From positions 288,001 through 352,000 of the IMG/VR virus record IMGVR_UViG_3300021514_000002: a stretch of DNA of 64,000 bases. One strand, given 5' to 3'. The DNA is from a virus (Duplodnaviria > Caudoviricetes). Below the pieces are notes generated by a model. That model saw only the letters and a program-made list of their open reading frames with translations. It did no database searches and was not told where the DNA came from. Position numbers and translations under genes: made by a program. The number at the start of each line of letters is the position of its first letter. Position 1 is the stretch's first letter. Shown one piece after another: positions 20,170-38,585 of this stretch.

Positions 20170-21651
20170 ATGAACGAATTATTCGAAAACTGGGCAGAAA
20201 CTAAAGCAGCATTGCTTGAAGGTCTTGACGCTCAAAAACAAAAGGTCGTAGCACCGCTGTTAGAAAATCAGAAAAATCATTTGATTGCTGAATCTGCAGC
20301 CGCTGGTTCTACTGCCGCACACGATATCGCTGGTTTCAGAAAGATTTTAATCCCAATGATCCGACGTATCATTCCAGGTACAATTGCTACTGAGCTTGTT
20401 GGTGTTCAACCAATGACTGGTCCAGTTGGACTTGTATACACTTTACGTTACCGTTATACTGAAAGCGTATCTGCTACTTCACATGCTAACCCATTTGGTC
20501 TTCCAGGTGCAATTACAGCTGGTGATGAAGTATTTGGTAACAGTTCACCAATCCGTCAATGGTATTCTGGCGCAGCTGGTCAACCTGTAGGTTCACCGTT
20601 AGTTGCTTCTGATGCACAGCCACAAGCACCTGGTGCCGGCGCTATCGCAGGTACAGACGCAGATGGAACAGTTGGTGCTGAAGCAATTGATACTGCATTG
20701 GCTTCTGGTCAAGCATGGCCTTCAAGCTTAGGTGCTTCTGCTGGTAACATTGGTTACGTTGACGGTCTTGGCCGTACAGTAGCTGGTTCAGTTTGGGGTG
20801 GTTCTGGTAGCTTTATTGAAGGTTCTGGTGGTCGTAAGATGACTATGGACGTTGTTAGTCAATCAGTTGAAGCTGGTTCACGTAAGTTACAAGCTGGTTG
20901 GACTATTGAAGCTATGCAAGATCTTAATGCACAGCACGGTTTAGATCTTGAATCTGAAATGACACAGGCATTGTCTGCTGAAATCGTTCAAGAAATTGAT
21001 CAAGAAATCATTACTGATCTTCTTGCCCTTGCAGGTACAGTAGATACATTTGATGGCGCTGGCGCTGGACAGTACAGCTTTAACAGTACTTCTGGTAACT
21101 ATGCACCTGCATATGTTGGTGATCGTCTTGCTAACCTTGGTGTTATCATCAATCGTGTTGCAAATGAAATCGCACGTAAGACTCGTCGTGGCGCTGGCAA
21201 CTTTATCGTTGTTTCTCCACTTATCGTTTCTGTTCTTCAGTCTGCTGCTAAGTCAGTATTCGCACCAGCTGTTGAAGGTTCATTCAAAGGTCCTAACAAC
21301 TCTATGTTAGTTGGTACTTTAAACGGGACTATCAAAGTATATAGTTACCTTTGGAACCAAGCAGGTGCAAACCTTGATCTTGGTGGTGGTGCTTCACCGC
21401 TTGAAAGTGCAAATGATACAATCCTTGTTGGTTATAAAGGTGGAAACGGAGAAACTGATACTGGTTACTTCTACTGCCCTTACATTCCATTGATGTCTTC
21501 TGGTGTTGTTGTTAATCCAACTACATTCCAACCAGTTGTTAGTTTAATGACTCGCTACGGTAAGTCTGTTTTCACTAACACTGAAACATCCTTGGGCAAT
21601 TCTGCAGATTATTACGGGAAAATAAATGTTGCAAATCTTGACCTTGTATAA
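20170..21651 (+). CDS. gp23: Major capsid protein gp23
   Basis: LLENQ..LIAE cleavage region, VGVQPMTGPVGL, SRKLQAGWTIEAMQDL, EIVQEID, YCPYIPL..FQP...TRYG. Confidence 0.98.
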   Translation: MNELFENWAETKAALLEGLDAQKQKVVAPLLENQKNHLIAESAAAGSTAAHDIAGFRKILIPMIRRIIPGTIATELVGVQPMTGPVGLVYTLRYRYTESVSATSHANPFGLPGAITAGDEVFGNSSPIRQWYSGAAGQPVGSPLVASDAQPQAPGAGAIAGTDADGTVGAEAIDTALASGQAWPSSLGASAGNIGYVDGLGRTVAGSVWGGSGSFIEGSGGRKMTMDVVSQSVEAGSRKLQAGWTIEAMQDLNAQHGLDLESEMTQALSAEIVQEIDQEIITDLLALAGTVDTFDGAGAGQYSFNSTSGNYAPAYVGDRLANLGVIINRVANEIARKTRRGAGNFIVVSPLIVSVLQSAAKSVFAPAVEGSFKGPNNSMLVGTLNGTIKVYSYLWNQAGANLDLGGGASPLESANDTILVGYKGGNGETDTGYFYCPYIPLMSSGVVVNPTTFQPVVSLMTRYGKSVFTNTETSLGNSADYYGKINVANLDLV

Positions 21652-34066: not shown

Positions 34067-34513
34067 ATGGCAAGGAAAGGTATAAGAAAAGGATTATTCA
34101 CTCCAAGGCATCCTGGAAAGTATGTTGGTAATGTAAACAATATTGTTTACCGTTCTTCTTGGGAACTTTCCTTTATGAATTTTTTAGACAACAATACTAA
34201 CATAGAAAAATGGGGCTCTGAAATTATTGCTATTCCTTATCGCAAACCAACTACAGGCAGAATACACAAATACTATCCAGATTTTTGGATAAAATATAAA
34301 AGTAAGAACGGTAACGTAGTTCAAGAAGTTATTGAAGTTAAACCAGAGAAAGAAACCCGCCAACCTACCACTGTAGGTAAAACTAAAAAAACACAATTAT
34401 ATGAAGCTATTACATGGTCAATAAATAAAGCAAAGTTTAAATCGGCGGCTCTTTTTTGTACTAAGTATGGGATGAAGTTTAGAGTGTTAACCGAAAAACA
34501 TCTTTTTCATTAA
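34067..34513 (+). CDS. gp4: Head completion nuclease gp4 (TnsA-like)
   Basis: F.PRHPGKY.G....I.YRSSWE..FM..LD......W.SE...IPY......H.YYPDF....EVKP. Confidence 0.93.
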   Translation: MARKGIRKGLFTPRHPGKYVGNVNNIVYRSSWELSFMNFLDNNTNIEKWGSEIIAIPYRKPTTGRIHKYYPDFWIKYKSKNGNVVQEVIEVKPEKETRQPTTVGKTKKTQLYEAITWSINKAKFKSAALFCTKYGMKFRVLTEKHLFH

Positions 34514-34578: not shown

Positions 34579-35019
34579 ATGACTACTGACACTACTGAAG
34601 TTGAAATGATTATTGAACATCCATTAGAAGAAATATTTGATATTGAATCAGGTACGACGCTAATACCTCGTACGGAGAAAACTACAGAATTAGTAGCGGG
34701 AGAAGAATATGATGATAAAGATAAAGAAATTGAAGATCAGTTTCAAGAAGTATATGACCATGCCCTTTCCGCATTCGAAGATCAAGTAGCAGAAGCAGAA
34801 GTTATTGAAGGAAAATATAAAGCACGCAACATGGAAGTTGGTGTTCAGTTATTAAATACCGCCCTTGCCGCAGCAAAAGAAAAATCATCACTGAAACAAC
34901 ATAAAGATAAGACAGCACTCGCCAAAGGAAAACTTACAGGGAAAACGGTCAACCACAATAACCTCATTATAGCTGACCGCAACGAGTTATTAAAAACGTT
35001 GATGAATAAAAAAGATTAA
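34579..35019 (+). CDS. gp16: Terminase small subunit gp16 (putative)
   Basis: Helical; AR.MEV..QLLNT, NHNNLII..R.ELLK; upstream of the large terminase. Confidence 0.7.
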   Translation: MTTDTTEVEMIIEHPLEEIFDIESGTTLIPRTEKTTELVAGEEYDDKDKEIEDQFQEVYDHALSAFEDQVAEAEVIEGKYKARNMEVGVQLLNTALAAAKEKSSLKQHKDKTALAKGKLTGKTVNHNNLIIADRNELLKTLMNKKD

Positions 35020-36137
35020 TCTAATATTTTCATCGCAGATTCAAAAGCATCAGATATTAGTTCATCAACTTCAGTCATACTTTCAATATTATCCGATTCT
35101 TTTTTTTCTTCAATCTTAAATGTTATATCTTTTAGTTTCGGTAAGTTATCCAATGTTAATTCGTAATAATAGTTACATGGTTCTTTTGTGATTGTAGTTG
35201 TCGCACCATCTTCCGTAGTAATTGTTTCTGTCGGCTGATTAACGTATTTACCGTAGCGTGACATAAATGTTGCAAAAGGTGCAAAAGTATCAGGATCTAC
35301 TACAATCTGAGCCATTGTTGGAATATATGGTGCGTAAATGTAACCAGTATCAGTTTCACCATTACCGCCTTTATATCCAATAATAGTTTTACCATGTTCA
35401 AGTCCGAAATCACAATATACTTTTATAGAACCATACAATGTTCCAATGTATTCGATGTAGCCATAATCGTATTCATTAAGTGCTTGTGGTATAAAGTTGT
35501 TACTATTTTTTAGGATTTCTGCAACGGCTTCAGACGCGATTACAAAATTACCACAACCTCGACGTGATTTCCTTGCAATTGAATTTGCGCATGAACTTAT
35601 AGATATCCCAATCTTCACAATTTTATTTTGATCAATATCCTTACCATCCCCTACGATTTTTTCAACGTCAAGTGACGCTTTATGTGCAATCCCAGAAATA
35701 TCATTTCTAATTTCTTCGTATATTTCTTTGGCGATTTCTGTACAAGGATTTACTTTATCATCAAATACCCCTGCGTTTATATCTTCTAAGGCTTCAAGTG
35801 ATAAACGTGTTTCTAATTTTCGCGCCCCTGCTTCTACTGCTTGCGAATTTATAGTTAGACTAATTCTGGTACCTACGTTGTTTTCTTCGTCTATAGGTTC
35901 TTCGTCTGTTATTTCATATTCTAATGAAAATATTAATCCAACAGGCGCTGTCATTGGTTGCACCCCAACAAAATGTCTGACAGCTAGACTATCAATCACT
36001 TCTGATGTAATATTTCTAATCATGTCTGCGCTTGAACTTGCACCCATGCCCGCAACGCTTTCAAGATAATCGTCTGTATTTTTAAGCAATGTATCCTTAA
36101 TTATGTCTTTTGTCTGCTCTGTATCTACTACGTTCAT
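35016..36137 (-). CDS. Second gp23-like capsid protein paralogue, ends DAFESAMKILD
   Basis: VGVQPMT.PVGL, VEAG.RKL, IARK.RRG.GNF and GYKGGNGETDTGY are shared with gp23; start moved to ATG 36137 (GAGG RBS). Confidence 0.88.
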   Translation of the reverse strand: MNVVDTEQTKDIIKDTLLKNTDDYLESVAGMGASSSADMIRNITSEVIDSLAVRHFVGVQPMTAPVGLIFSLEYEITDEEPIDEENNVGTRISLTINSQAVEAGARKLETRLSLEALEDINAGVFDDKVNPCTEIAKEIYEEIRNDISGIAHKASLDVEKIVGDGKDIDQNKIVKIGISISSCANSIARKSRRGCGNFVIASEAVAEILKNSNNFIPQALNEYDYGYIEYIGTLYGSIKVYCDFGLEHGKTIIGYKGGNGETDTGYIYAPYIPTMAQIVVDPDTFAPFATFMSRYGKYVNQPTETITTEDGATTTITKEPCNYYYELTLDNLPKLKDITFKIEEKKESDNIESMTEVDELISDAFESAMKILD

Positions 36138-36153
36138 AATTCTATCCTCTTTC

Positions 36154-36227
36154 TCTTTATTTACTACTTTAAAAATTAGACATCCCAATAGATTGGTAAC
36201 CCAAAAATGTGTGGTAGTAAATAAAGA
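36154..36227. promoter_or_regulatory. Divergent promoter pair forming a perfect 14 bp inverted repeat
   Basis: GTAGTAAATAAAGA on both strands (36154-36167 minus, 36214-36227 plus), each with a late-promoter-like TAAATA core. Confidence 0.65.
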
Positions 36228-36228
36228 T

Positions 36229-37017
36229 ATGAAAAAAGAAATATTAAACGAATTACATGAACGACAGAACTTGCTAAATCTTGTGATAAATTCTGCAAGA
36301 GATCCGTCTTATTTTATAGAACACTATGCGAAGATACAACATCCAACAAAAGGTGCTGTTCCTTTTAAACCATATAAAAAACAAGAACAGTTGTTATATT
36401 CGTATCAGGAAAATCGTTGGAATATAACATTGGGTTCTAGGCAGACAGGAATCACTATAACTAATGCACTATACGCCTTCTGGTTTGCTATGTTTAAATC
36501 AGATAAAACTATAATGATTGCGGGTGAAAAGTTGCGACATTCTAAAGATATTTTACATAGTATTAGATTTGCGTATGAAAATTTACCCAAGTGGCTACAA
36601 GCCCGCAATAAATTAGTGATCAATAATAAATGTATGATGCAATTTGAAAATGGTACAAGGATTTTGGCGATAGCGCCGACTATATATGCAGTTAGAGGAT
36701 TTTCGGTCGATCTTATGATATTAGATTGTTTTGCATATATGTCACCAAATAAACAAGAAGAATTTTATACGTCACTATATCCTGCAACAATGGGTTCAAA
36801 AAATAGTGTAATGATTATGAGTTCGACTGGCGGCGGATATGACGGGGTATTTACCTCCATTTGGGATGATGCTTTGGCGAAAAAGAATAAATTCGTGGCA
36901 AACTTTATTAAATGGAATGATGTACCTGAACGGGATGATGGGTTCAAGGATTCAATGGTTTCCATGCTTGGAGAAACACGATGGAAAGTGGAGTATGAAT
37001 GCTCTTTTGATAATTAA
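36229..37017 (+). CDS. Terminase ATPase-domain paralogue with degenerate Walker motifs
   Basis: Collinear with the N-terminal half of gp17; SRQTGIT (vs ARQTGKS) and MILDCFA (vs LFLDEFA); stops right after EYEC, so it has no nuclease domain. Confidence 0.85.
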   Translation: MKKEILNELHERQNLLNLVINSARDPSYFIEHYAKIQHPTKGAVPFKPYKKQEQLLYSYQENRWNITLGSRQTGITITNALYAFWFAMFKSDKTIMIAGEKLRHSKDILHSIRFAYENLPKWLQARNKLVINNKCMMQFENGTRILAIAPTIYAVRGFSVDLMILDCFAYMSPNKQEEFYTSLYPATMGSKNSVMIMSSTGGGYDGVFTSIWDDALAKKNKFVANFIKWNDVPERDDGFKDSMVSMLGETRWKVEYECSFDN

Positions 37018-37028
37018 GGAAGATTATA

Positions 37029-38585
37029 ATGGCGCGCGCAAAGAATGATAAGTTAAAAACCCCCGATCAGGAAGTTGAATTTACATATGAACAGGTACAA
37101 GAGCTAAAGCGTTGTGTTCAAGATCCTATTTACTTTATAGAAAATTACGTTCAAATACAACATCCCGTTAAGGGTGCCGTTCCCTTTCGGTTATATCCAT
37201 ATCAAAAAAATATGATTCGTGCATATCAAGATAACCGTTACACTGTAGTACTTTCTGCACGTCAAACTGGTAAATCTATAACATCCGCCGCCTACCTTCT
37301 TTGGTATGCAATGTTCCAGTTTGATAAAACCGTCCTGATTGCAGCCAATAAAAACGCAAATGCAATGGAAATGATTTTACGTATTCGTTTTGCATATGAA
37401 AATCTTCCAATGTGGTTGAAAGCTGGCGTTAAAGACGATGGTTGGAATAAACATGAAATTGGCTTTGATAATGGTTCCCGTATCGTGTCAACCGCAACAT
37501 CGGAAGATTCTGGTCGTGGTATGGCTATTTCACTTTTGTTCCTTGACGAATTTGCATTTGTAAAACCTAATATCCAAGATGAATTTTGGACATCAATAGC
37601 ACCTACATTATCAACTGGTGGTTCGTGTATAATGACATCAACGCCTAATGGTGACATGAATATTTATGCTCAGGTTTGGCGCGGTTCGCAAATGGGTACT
37701 AATGGATTTTTCCCTATACATGTTAAATGGGACGAACCCCCAGGCAGAGATGGTAAGTTTAAAGAGGAGGAAACTGGAAGGATTGGTGTCCGTCGTTGGC
37801 AACAAGAATATGAATGTGTCTTTTTGTCATCAGATTCATTGCTTATTGATTCGTTATTTCTTACGAACCTAACGCCGTTAATTGAAGCAATCGTTCCTAA
37901 GCTTACTGTAAACGATGTTGTTTTGTTTGATGAAATAAAACCAGCAAATACATATTTACTGGGTGTCGATCCTGCTACTGGCAGTGGTGAAGATTATAGT
38001 GTTATCACTATATTTGAATTTCCGTCAATGACTCAGGTTGGTGAATATCGTAGTAATACAATGTCCACAAATGATTTATATGGTGTTATGAAAAATATAT
38101 TAAAACATATAGAATCAAAAGGAGCGATGGTATATTTCTCAATAGAAAATAACGGCGTTGGTCAGGGATTAATTGCATTATATGAAGCTGATGAAGAGCC
38201 ATTAAAACTTGCTGAGTTTGTTTCAGAAGACGGCAAGAATAAATTAGGATTCACAACAACAGCACGTAGTAAAATGCGCTCGTGTGTTAACCTGAAAGAA
38301 ATGCTTGAAAAAGAAAATATGCATATTACTTCAAGAATCCTTTTATCTGAATTAAAGTCTTATGTTCGTTCACGTGGTGCATATGCAGCGCAAGCAGGTG
38401 CAACAGATGATTGTATAGCTGCAACGCTTATTGTACTTAGATTAGTAGAAGAGATCGCGGCGTATGAGCAGGCGGCGTTTGATAAACTATATGCAGGCGA
38501 TTATGATGAATGGAAGCAATCAGACTGGGATGGATATGAAGAAGGATACGATGAAAACGACGAGGGATTGCCTAGTATATTTTAA
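37029..38585 (+). CDS. gp17: Terminase large subunit gp17
   Basis: ARQTGKS, LFLDEFAF, TSTPNG, LGVDPATG.G.DYS, DDC..A. Confidence 0.97.
   Translation: MARAKNDKLKTPDQEVEFTYEQVQELKRCVQDPIYFIENYVQIQHPVKGAVPFRLYPYQKNMIRAYQDNRYTVVLSARQTGKSITSAAYLLWYAMFQFDKTVLIAANKNANAMEMILRIRFAYENLPMWLKAGVKDDGWNKHEIGFDNGSRIVSTATSEDSGRGMAISLLFLDEFAFVKPNIQDEFWTSIAPTLSTGGSCIMTSTPNGDMNIYAQVWRGSQMGTNGFFPIHVKWDEPPGRDGKFKEEETGRIGVRRWQQEYECVFLSSDSLLIDSLFLTNLTPLIEAIVPKLTVNDVVLFDEIKPANTYLLGVDPATGSGEDYSVITIFEFPSMTQVGEYRSNTMSTNDLYGVMKNILKHIESKGAMVYFSIENNGVGQGLIALYEADEEPLKLAEFVSEDGKNKLGFTTTARSKMRSCVNLKEMLEKENMHITSRILLSELKSYVRSRGAYAAQAGATDDCIAATLIVLRLVEEIAAYEQAAFDKLYAGDYDEWKQSDWDGYEEGYDENDEGLPSIF

What the first reader, a model, noticed from the sequence alone, without database searches (positions are those of the whole stretch)
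36229..37017. Pseudo-terminase: intact ATPase-domain scaffold with both Walker motifs disabled
It lies directly upstream of gp17 and is collinear with it (QHP.KGAVPF and IRFAYENLP.WL are conserved with mostly synonymous codon changes). Walker A Lys is replaced by Ile (GKS to GIT), Walker B Glu by Cys (DE to DC), and TSTPNG becomes SSTGGG. It stops immediately after EYEC, dropping the nuclease domain. A preserved frame with targeted loss of catalysis indicates a pseudoenzyme rather than decay. Avs sensors are known to read the terminase ATPase domain, so a decoy role or a packaging-regulator role is plausible.
Basis: partly seen in the sequence, partly recalled or inferred. Interest (0 to 1): 0.85.

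Follow-up and report, generated by a model that had tools for sequence, protein, structure and literature searches.

The report
Dead terminase-ATPase copy before terL
Just in front of its DNA-packaging motor gene, this 364-kb uncultured jumbo phage keeps an intact copy of the motor's ATP-binding half that has lost the residues needed to burn ATP and lacks the DNA-cutting half. It belongs to a widespread, barely described family whose function is unknown.

Summary
Observation confirmed. ORF 36229-37017 (+) encodes 262 aa that are 43% identical (E 8e-70) to the ATPase domain of the adjacent 518-aa TerL (37029-38585). The Walker A Lys is Ile, the Walker B Glu is Cys, and TSTPNG has become SSTGGG. 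The protein ends four residues after EYEC, at the hinge that follows the ATPase domain in T4 gp17.

It is not decaying. Three close relatives (87-50% identity) keep the frame, the length, the dead motifs and the synteny, and dN/dS against the 59% relative is 0.22 (0.13-0.32).

About 30 further 50%-identity cluster representatives are also short and Walker-dead. A tree holding them as one clade is not rejected. Most lie directly upstream of terL, and some lineages carry two tandem copies.

The family includes CBB_274, which Buttimer et al. 2017 called a "truncated large terminase" in one paragraph. It also includes 121Q gp3 and the Xoo-sp13 gene annotated as small terminase. I found no paper describing the catalytic loss, the selection or a function.

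The scan has found this kind before on other DNA.

Most likely it acts by binding as a non-catalytic accessory of the packaging terminase. A decoy for terminase-sensing immunity (Avs/Upx) is the main rival. Neither role is tested.

The parts
36229..37017 (+). CDS of the Walker-dead, nuclease-less TerL ATPase-domain paralogue (262 aa; alternative GTG start at 36211 gives 268 aa)
36439..36456 (+). Degenerate Walker A: R-Q-T-G-I-T. Arg and Gln are kept; Lys is replaced by Ile (codon 36451-36453)
36724..36729 (+). Degenerate Walker B: Asp is kept; the catalytic Glu is replaced by Cys (codon 36727-36729)
36820..36837 (+). Degraded C (coupling) motif: SSTGGG in place of TSTPNG
37029..38585 (+). Bona fide large terminase TerL (518 aa; Terminase_6N plus Terminase_6C, intact Walker A/B). 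Its start lies 11 nt after the paralogue's stop and has an AAGGAAG ribosome-binding site
36138..36228 (.). Divergent intergenic region between the gp23-like gene and the paralogue. Mean column identity is 85% across three phages whose flanking proteins are only 43-60% identical. It holds the 14-mer GTAGTAAATAAAGA on both strands (36154-36167 minus, 36214-36227 plus) and a conserved central block CCAATAGATTGGTAACCC (36185-36202)
35016..36137 (-). gp23-like (major head protein family) paralogue, antisense, between TerS and the dead TerL copy. The same arrangement occurs in four relatives
34579..35019 (+). Small-terminase-like gene (146 aa, phrog_445, E 1.4e-7), 81% identical in L003

Best explanation
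This is a real gene, kept by selection, for a catalytically dead copy of the ATPase domain of the phage's own large terminase. It has no nuclease domain. It belongs to the 'truncated large terminase' family that sits directly upstream of terL in many T4-related jumbo phages. These points are shown: the fold is intact; the domain is complete up to the hinge; the Walker A Lys, the Walker B Glu and the coupling motif are lost, here and throughout the family; and many other TerL-conserved positions are kept. The gene lies 11 nt before terL, behind a conserved intergenic region. From that I infer that the two genes are transcribed together late in infection. Also inferred: the protein cannot hydrolyse ATP and works by binding. 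Its most likely role is as a non-catalytic accessory of the packaging terminase, contacting TerL, TerS or the portal through surfaces inherited from TerL, and tuning assembly or activity of the motor or nuclease. My confidence in the identity (selected pseudo-ATPase of this family) is about 0.95. My confidence in the packaging-accessory mechanism is about 0.45, which is the figure given below.
For: Homology and fold.

Selection: intact orthologues with the same dead motifs and dN/dS 0.22 [0.13-0.32] against 0.04 for TerL over the same genome pair.

Family: about 30 short Walker-dead representatives among the top 150 of 1.84 billion cluster representatives. A tree holding them as one clade is not rejected (p-AU 0.93; that tree was 77 lnL better than the free quick search).

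Selective rather than random loss: of 30 dead members, Lys is kept in 1 and Glu in 1. By contrast the Walker A Arg and Gln are kept in 30/30, the Gly in 29/30, the upstream Gln (Q motif) in 29/30 and the Walker B Asp in 28/30. The Arg of the R-G motif 11 residues before Walker B is R in 19 and K in 6, and its Gly is kept in 30/30. The subdomain II motifs W..P.RD and E-Y-E-C are largely kept.

Position: the gene is directly upstream of terL on the same strand in the window, in the contigs of P0004, P0005 and P0006, and in L012, L013, L018 and L019. The same holds in the cultured phages Xoo-sp13, 121Q, RaK2 and CBB. A separate TerS-like gene is present.

RaK2 ORF110 is not among the genes annotated as virion structural proteins, although its neighbours are. 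That fits terminase-like behaviour.
Against: No binding partner is shown. The gene is not universal among related jumbo phages: a family profile found only TerL in XacN1, RsoM2USA, RAS14 and PA5oct, and Phosso and Atu_ph07 carry their copy far from terL. Copy number varies from 0 to 2. It evolves about five times faster than TerL: 60% against 91%, 43% against 87% and 38% against 76% identity in three genome pairs. Patchiness, variable copy number and fast evolution are more typical of accessory or counter-defence genes than of core motor parts. Part of the monophyly signal could be long-branch attraction among fast-evolving rows. The 'dead' class was defined by the Lys and Glu columns themselves.
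Confidence: 0.45

Rival explanations
1. Immune decoy or shield. The dead copy mimics the TerL ATPase domain and soaks up or blocks host sensors that recognise it (Avs1-3, Upx) without activating them. Alternatively, it masks TerL from those sensors.
For: Avs2 and Upx are activated by the terminase ATPase domain alone, and EcAvs2 recognition involves the terminase-bound ATP and Mg (PMC13601566). A copy without Lys and Glu and without a nuclease domain could therefore occupy a sensor without completing the activating interface. Fast evolution, 0-2 copies and patchy distribution resemble counter-defence genes. Placement directly before terL would, if the two are co-transcribed as I infer, supply the protein whenever TerL is made.
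Against: If recognition needs the ATP-loaded active site, a pocket that cannot hold ATP may simply not bind the sensor (stealth rather than decoy). The constant position inside the packaging gene cluster over deep divergence is unusual for anti-defence genes. No host or defence-system information exists for this metagenomic phage. No TerL-like anti-Avs protein turned up in the literature I searched.
Confidence: 0.25
2. Still an enzyme. It would bind or hydrolyse nucleotide using non-canonical residues, for example with the conserved Walker A Arg standing in for Lys.
For: Pocket-lining residues (R-Q-x-G, the upstream Gln, the Walker B Asp) are nearly invariant across the dead family. The Glu is most often replaced by Asn, Asp or Ser rather than by random residues.
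Against: The Lys position holds Thr, Ile, Leu, Ser, Met, Val or Asn, with no consistent substitute, and the coupling motif is degraded. In T4 gp17, K166 and E256 are the residues taken as essential for ATPase activity (established knowledge, not tested here).
Confidence: 0.07
3. Weapon in phage-phage competition. It would act as a dominant-negative motor subunit that poisons the packaging complexes of co-infecting relatives, while the phage's own TerL is insensitive.
For: It keeps the whole ATPase domain including subdomain II, which in T4 faces the portal. It evolves fast and is patchily distributed.
Against: This is pure inference, with no precedent found. Co-expression with its own TerL would risk self-poisoning.
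Confidence: 0.05
4. A functionless remnant of a tandem duplication (a pseudogene in slow decay), or simply the small terminase, as annotated in Xoo-sp13.
For: The catalytic residues are lost. The Pfam score falls below the gathering cut-off (20.4 against 22). The Xoo-sp13 homologue is annotated 'terminase small subunit'.
Against: There are no frameshifts or stops in any of more than 30 diverged members, and all have a consistent length and end point. dN/dS is 0.22. A separate TerS-like gene is present in the window and in L012. The fold is TerL, not TerS.
Confidence: 0.03

Closest known systems
'Truncated large terminase' of Rak2-like jumbo phages (CBB_274; also GAP32, 121Q gp3, RaK2 ORF110), noted by Buttimer et al. 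2017 (PMC5259590)
   Same: A short protein made only of the gp17-type ATPase domain, directly upstream of (in these phages overlapping) terL on the same strand. CBB_274 matches the dead-paralogue profile with hhalign probability 99.4% and E 4e-21 over 219 columns, and is itself Walker-dead (G-L-S for GKS, D-S for DE). 121Q gp3 matches at 93%, E 2.8e-7.
   Different: Sequence identity to the window protein is very low: tblastn with P0001 listed 121Q-like records only through their TerL. The paper only remarks that the domain is 'incomplete'. It says nothing on loss of catalytic residues, on selection or on function. In the window, an antisense gp23-like gene separates TerS from the paralogue.
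T4 gp17 (TerL) N-terminal ATPase domain, PDB 2O0H/2O0J/3CPE; Pfam Terminase_6N PF03237
   Same: Same fold (TM 0.82-0.84) and the same domain limits, ending at about gp17 residue 358. The Arg-Gln of Walker A, the upstream Gln, the Walker B Asp and the R-G motif are conserved.
   Different: Lys166, Glu256 and the coupling motif are replaced. There is no hinge or nuclease domain. The Pfam score is below the gathering cut-off.
T4 vs.8, a TerL-ATPase-like accessory protein that activates EcAvs2 on co-expression (PMC13601566)
   Same: A stand-alone protein related to the terminase ATPase domain, encoded by a T4-type phage in addition to TerL, with unknown function.
   Different: vs.8 keeps Walker A (GKS) and Walker B (DE). 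It lies in an early-gene region far from gene 17. It belongs to another family (phrog_1488) and shows no detectable profile similarity to the dead family (hhalign probability 0.3%).
Xanthomonas phage Xoo-sp13 gene 242 (annotated 'terminase small subunit') and the 281-aa ORF of Sinorhizobium phage Phosso
   Same: Both match the paralogue profile (E 1.2e-14 and 2.8e-16) and are Walker-dead: G-T-S with D-V, and G-I-T with D-N. The Xoo-sp13 gene lies directly upstream of terL.
   Different: Both are much more diverged. The Phosso copy lies about 52 kb from terL. Their annotations (small terminase; the Phosso ORF's annotation was not looked up) do not reflect the homology.

Membership tests
T4-type large terminase TerL (gp17) | ASCE ATPase-domain fold of gp17 (subdomains I and II) | tested here: met
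   AF2 model pLDDT 84; Foldseek 2o0j/2o0h TM 0.82-0.83, E about 6e-20
T4-type large terminase TerL (gp17) | Pfam Terminase_6N at or above the gathering score | tested here: not met
   20.4 bits against a cut-off of 22; 27 of 33 family members match at E<=0.01
T4-type large terminase TerL (gp17) | Walker A G-K-[ST] with the catalytic Lys (T4 K166) | tested here: not met
   G-I-T; I75 aligns with K166
T4-type large terminase TerL (gp17) | Walker B D-E with the catalytic Glu (T4 E256) | tested here: not met
   D-C
T4-type large terminase TerL (gp17) | C-terminal RNase H-like nuclease domain (Terminase_6C) | tested here: not met
   The protein ends at the hinge; there is no 6C hit
'Truncated large terminase' / Walker-dead TerL-N paralogues | Short protein (about 220-310 aa) consisting of the TerL ATPase domain only | tested here: met
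   262 aa, collinear with TerL residues 31-265
'Truncated large terminase' / Walker-dead TerL-N paralogues | Encoded directly upstream of terL on the same strand | tested here: met
   11-nt spacer; same arrangement in relatives and in CBB, 121Q, RaK2 and Xoo-sp13
'Truncated large terminase' / Walker-dead TerL-N paralogues | Profile-level homology with the literature example CBB_274 | tested here: met
   hhalign of CBB_274 against alignment A3 (first row is the window protein): probability 99.4%, E 4e-21
'Truncated large terminase' / Walker-dead TerL-N paralogues | Loss of the Walker A Lys and the Walker B Glu | tested here: met
T4 vs.8 family (phrog_1488) | Sequence or profile similarity to vs.8, with intact Walker A/B | tested here: not met
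   hhalign probability 0.3%; vs.8 hits phrog_1488 and the paralogue does not
Small terminase (TerS, phrog_445) | Match to a TerS family | tested here: not met
   All PHROG hits of the paralogue that carry a function annotation are TerL families; two further hits are to families of unknown function. A separate TerS-like gene lies at 34579-35019
Anti-defence decoy of terminase sensors (Avs1-3, Upx) | Binds the sensor and prevents its activation | not testable with these tools
   No host and no sensor sequence are available; this needs co-expression assays

The most novel reading that the evidence does not exclude
The dead copies are dedicated, non-catalytic players in a conflict or control layer around the packaging motor. 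One possibility is built-in inactive subunits or adaptors of a heteromeric terminase, which would be the first viral packaging motor with pseudo-ATPase subunits. The other is stoichiometric decoys that hide TerL's conserved ATPase domain from Avs/Upx-type sensors. The systematic loss of exactly Lys and Glu would then also make the copy itself invisible to sensors that read the ATP-loaded site.
Probability: 0.3. Interest if true: 0.85.

Novelty: new member of a known kind. Interest (0 to 1): 0.6.

Why it matters
TerL is the most conserved protein of tailed phages, and bacterial immune sensors read it. A widespread, selected, catalytically dead copy placed right before terL means that many jumbo phages add an unrecognised component to the packaging module or its defence.

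Standard annotation leaves the family largely unlabelled or mislabelled. The window protein scores below the Pfam cut-off. Cultured-phage homologues are called 'hypothetical protein', 'terminase small subunit' or 'terminase large subunit'.

Because members exist in cultured phages (121Q, PBECO4, RaK2, CBB, Xoo-sp13, Phosso), the function is directly testable by genetics and biochemistry.

Tried and rejected
- **Complex prediction, paralogue with full TerL:** no verdict; it counts neither way.
- **Public runs:** two hydrothermal-vent metagenome runs hold the stretch. No RNA holder is listed, so nothing can be said about expression.
- **Laying contigs:** the second run's contigs are identical over parts of the flanks, but none was laid across 35910-37037. 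No closer relative was obtained for a better dN/dS.
- **Close relatives:** megablast of the locus against phage records found no match. Scans of viral contigs gave no close relative, only two loci at 26-27% identity.
- **DNA for P0004 and P0006:** not retrievable, so dN/dS rests on one pair with saturated dS of about 1.25.
- **T4 vs.8 as a relative:** rejected.
- **Other upstream genes:** XacN1 ORF256, directly upstream of terL, shows no similarity. The RAS14 upstream 161-aa ORF gives only a weak, non-significant profile hit.
- **Promoter boxes:** AGTAAATA is not enriched in the window (7 found against 5.5 expected), so it cannot be called a general late-promoter motif of this phage.
- **Literature:** searches for inactive or pseudo-terminase paralogues, and for a TerL-like anti-Avs decoy, found nothing. 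A 'second terminase large subunit' hit was an allelic variant.

Full report
**What is there.** The window is bases 288001-352000 of a 363.5-kb viral record judged complete. Public runs that hold the stretch are hydrothermal-vent metagenomes.

ORF 36229-37017 (+) encodes 262 aa. Eleven nucleotides downstream starts a 518-aa large terminase (37029-38585). That protein has Terminase_6N and Terminase_6C domains and intact Walker motifs.

The short protein is collinear with TerL residues 31-265: 43% identity, E 8e-70. Its function-annotated PHROG hits are all TerL families; two further hits are to families of unknown function. Its Pfam score (20.4 bits) is below the Terminase_6N gathering cut-off of 22, so pipelines leave it unnamed.

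The AF2 model (pLDDT 84) superposes on the T4 gp17 ATPase domain with TM 0.82-0.84.

In the alignment to gp17:
- I75 falls on K166, R71 on R162 and Q72 on Q163.
- C167 falls on E256.
- The C-terminal EYEC-SFDN falls on gp17 351-358, the end of the N-terminal ATPase domain.

So the gene is a clean copy of the whole ATPase domain, without hinge and nuclease.

**Not decay.** A word-indexed search of 5.8 billion proteins found orthologues at 87, 59 and 50% identity (P0004-P0006). All are intact, 258-274 aa long and end at EYEC-x-F-x-x. The Lys is replaced by Ile or Leu, and the Glu by Cys, Asp or Asn.

Their contigs show the same gene order: TerS-like, antisense gp23-like, paralogue, TerL.

For the one relative with DNA (L003), Nei-Gojobori dN/dS is 0.22, bootstrap 0.13-0.32. 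Even the uncorrected pN/pS is 0.38. For the first 181 codons of TerL in the same genome pair, dN/dS is 0.044. dS is about 1.25 and saturating, so the true ratio is probably lower.

The paralogue evolves about five times faster than TerL in three genome pairs:

| Pair | Paralogue identity | TerL identity |
|---|---|---|
| window vs L003 | 60% | 91% (first 181 residues) |
| window vs L019 | 43% | 87% |
| window vs L012 | 38% | 76% (first 165 residues) |

**A large family.** A profile of the four close members was run against 1.84 billion cluster representatives. It returned about 30 short proteins (247-310 aa) among the best 150 that lack the Lys, the Glu or, nearly always, both. All end within a few to about 20 residues of EYEC.

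In a tree of 133 ATPase domains, 30 of the 31 rows classed as short and dead fall in one region, beside the TerL group that contains the window's TerL. The 31st is a TerL whose intein at Walker A mimics a lost Lys. The window's subclade of 11 has 99% support. A tree with the 30 dead proteins (the intein row left out) held as one clade is not rejected, and was the better tree found (p-AU 0.93). Long-branch attraction among fast-evolving rows could contribute to this.

The loss is selective. Among 45 columns conserved in at least 80% of active TerLs, the dead group keeps:

| Position | Kept in dead group (of 30) |
|---|---|
| Walker A Arg and Gln | 30 |
| Walker A Gly | 29 |
| Upstream Gln | 29 |
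| Walker B Asp | 28 |
| Gly of the R-G motif 11 residues before Walker B | 30 (its Arg is R in 19, K in 6) |
| Trp of the W..P.RD motif | 29 |
| First Glu of E-Y-E-C | 24 |
| Walker A Lys | 1 |
| Walker B Glu | 1 |

The TSTPNG motif is degraded. The class was defined by the Lys and Glu columns, so only the retention of the other columns is an independent observation.

**Context.** Of eleven metagenomic contexts, nine place the gene immediately before terL. One contig was too short to show neighbours (L014). In one lineage the gene is not next to a recognisable TerL (L020/L021).

Two lineages carry two dead copies in tandem before terL (L012 and L013).

In cultured phages:
- Xoo-sp13 gene 242, annotated 'terminase small subunit', is a diverged Walker-dead member directly upstream of terL.
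- Phosso and Atu_ph07 carry a copy elsewhere in the genome.
- XacN1, RsoM2USA, RAS14 and PA5oct show none at profile level.

121Q gp3, RaK2 ORF110 and CBB_274 lie directly before, and overlap, terL. CBB_274 matches the family profile at 99.4% probability, E 4e-21, and reads G-L-S and D-S at the two Walker positions. 121Q gp3 matches at 93%.

Buttimer et al. [quoted passage not shown] They say it is shared by Rak2-like phages and by phiM12 and phiN3. I found nothing in the literature on catalytic loss, selection or function.

**Expression signals.** The 91-nt region between the divergent gp23-like gene and the paralogue has 85% mean column identity in three phages whose flanking proteins are only 43-60% identical. 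Identical 14-mers containing TAAATA lie on both strands, and there is a conserved central block. The spacing from the plus-strand box to the ATG is the same in all three phages.

terL has a good ribosome-binding site, and I saw no TAAATA box in the paralogue's last 40 nt before it (no promoter scan was run). I therefore infer that the paralogue and terL are co-transcribed. The box is not enriched elsewhere in the window, so calling it a late promoter is inference.

**Mechanism.** The protein cannot be a normal ATPase. The pattern is a kept fold, kept pocket-lining and subdomain II residues, a fixed position between TerS and TerL, and purifying selection. This fits a protein that works by binding through TerL-derived surfaces.

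I rate a non-catalytic accessory of the terminase-portal machinery as most likely (about 0.45). The main rival is a decoy or shield against terminase-sensing immunity (about 0.25). In its favour are the fast evolution, the variable copy number and the patchy distribution. It is also favoured by the fact that Avs2 and Upx respond to the ATPase domain alone, and that EcAvs2 reads the ATP-loaded site (PMC13601566). Against it, a pocket unable to hold ATP may simply escape such sensors rather than occupy them.

T4 vs.8 is the nearest conceptual precedent, a TerL-ATPase-like accessory protein that triggers EcAvs2. But it keeps its Walker motifs, lies elsewhere in the genome and is a different family.

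**Verdict.** The protein is a new member of a barely described kind, and the scan has met the same kind before on other DNA. The function remains open but is testable in cultured carriers.

Noticed in passing
window 35016-36137 (-): A second gp23-family gene (phrog_138, E 4e-45) lies antisense between TerS and the dead TerL copy. The arrangement is conserved in four relatives. The gene evolves fast (51% identity, dN/dS 0.33 against L003). The genome has a main gp23 at window 20326-21630 and at least one further weak Gp23 hit elsewhere. It may be the vertex (gp24-like) protein.
   Followed up: partly
window 36138-36228: The divergent intergenic region is far more conserved (85% mean column identity in three phages) than the genes it separates. 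It has mirrored GTAGTAAATAAAGA boxes and a unique central block CCAATAGATTGGTAACCC containing the inverted repeat CCAAT/ATTGG. This is probably a shared regulatory site.
   Followed up: partly
L012:514-1179 and L013:534-1187: In two related lineages a second, shorter and more diverged Walker-dead TerL-N copy (222 and 218 aa) precedes the first, giving two tandem dead copies before terL.
   Followed up: partly
L018:1060-2828: Here terL is interrupted. A 198-aa ORF covers TerL residues 9-171 with intact Walker A and stops before Walker B. It is followed by a 384-aa ORF unrelated to TerL, possibly an intron- or intein-associated gene.
   Followed up: no
proteins P0023, P0030, P0035, P0064, P0065, P0092, P0106, P0156: Many TerL representatives (586-888 aa) show T-H-N-S/T at the Walker A position, the signature of an intein inserted in the P-loop. 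They look 'Lys-less' in a naive motif scan but are not dead paralogues.
   Followed up: no
proteins P0112 (548 aa) and P0130 (571 aa): Two full-length TerL-like representatives form a supported pair. Their Walker A Lys is replaced by Leu or Met, but the Walker B D-E is kept. They could be full-length inactive paralogues or terminases with a deviant P-loop.
   Followed up: no
L024:2415-2897 (Stenotrophomonas phage RAS14): The 161-aa ORF directly upstream of terL gives a weak, non-significant profile alignment to the dead family (E 0.014), with motif-like strings at the expected places. It may be an extremely reduced member.
   Followed up: partly
window 34067-34513 (+): A gp4-type head completion / TnsA-like nuclease (phrog_218, E 1.5e-50) lies just upstream of TerS, as in relatives. 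This is ordinary for this phage group.
   Followed up: no
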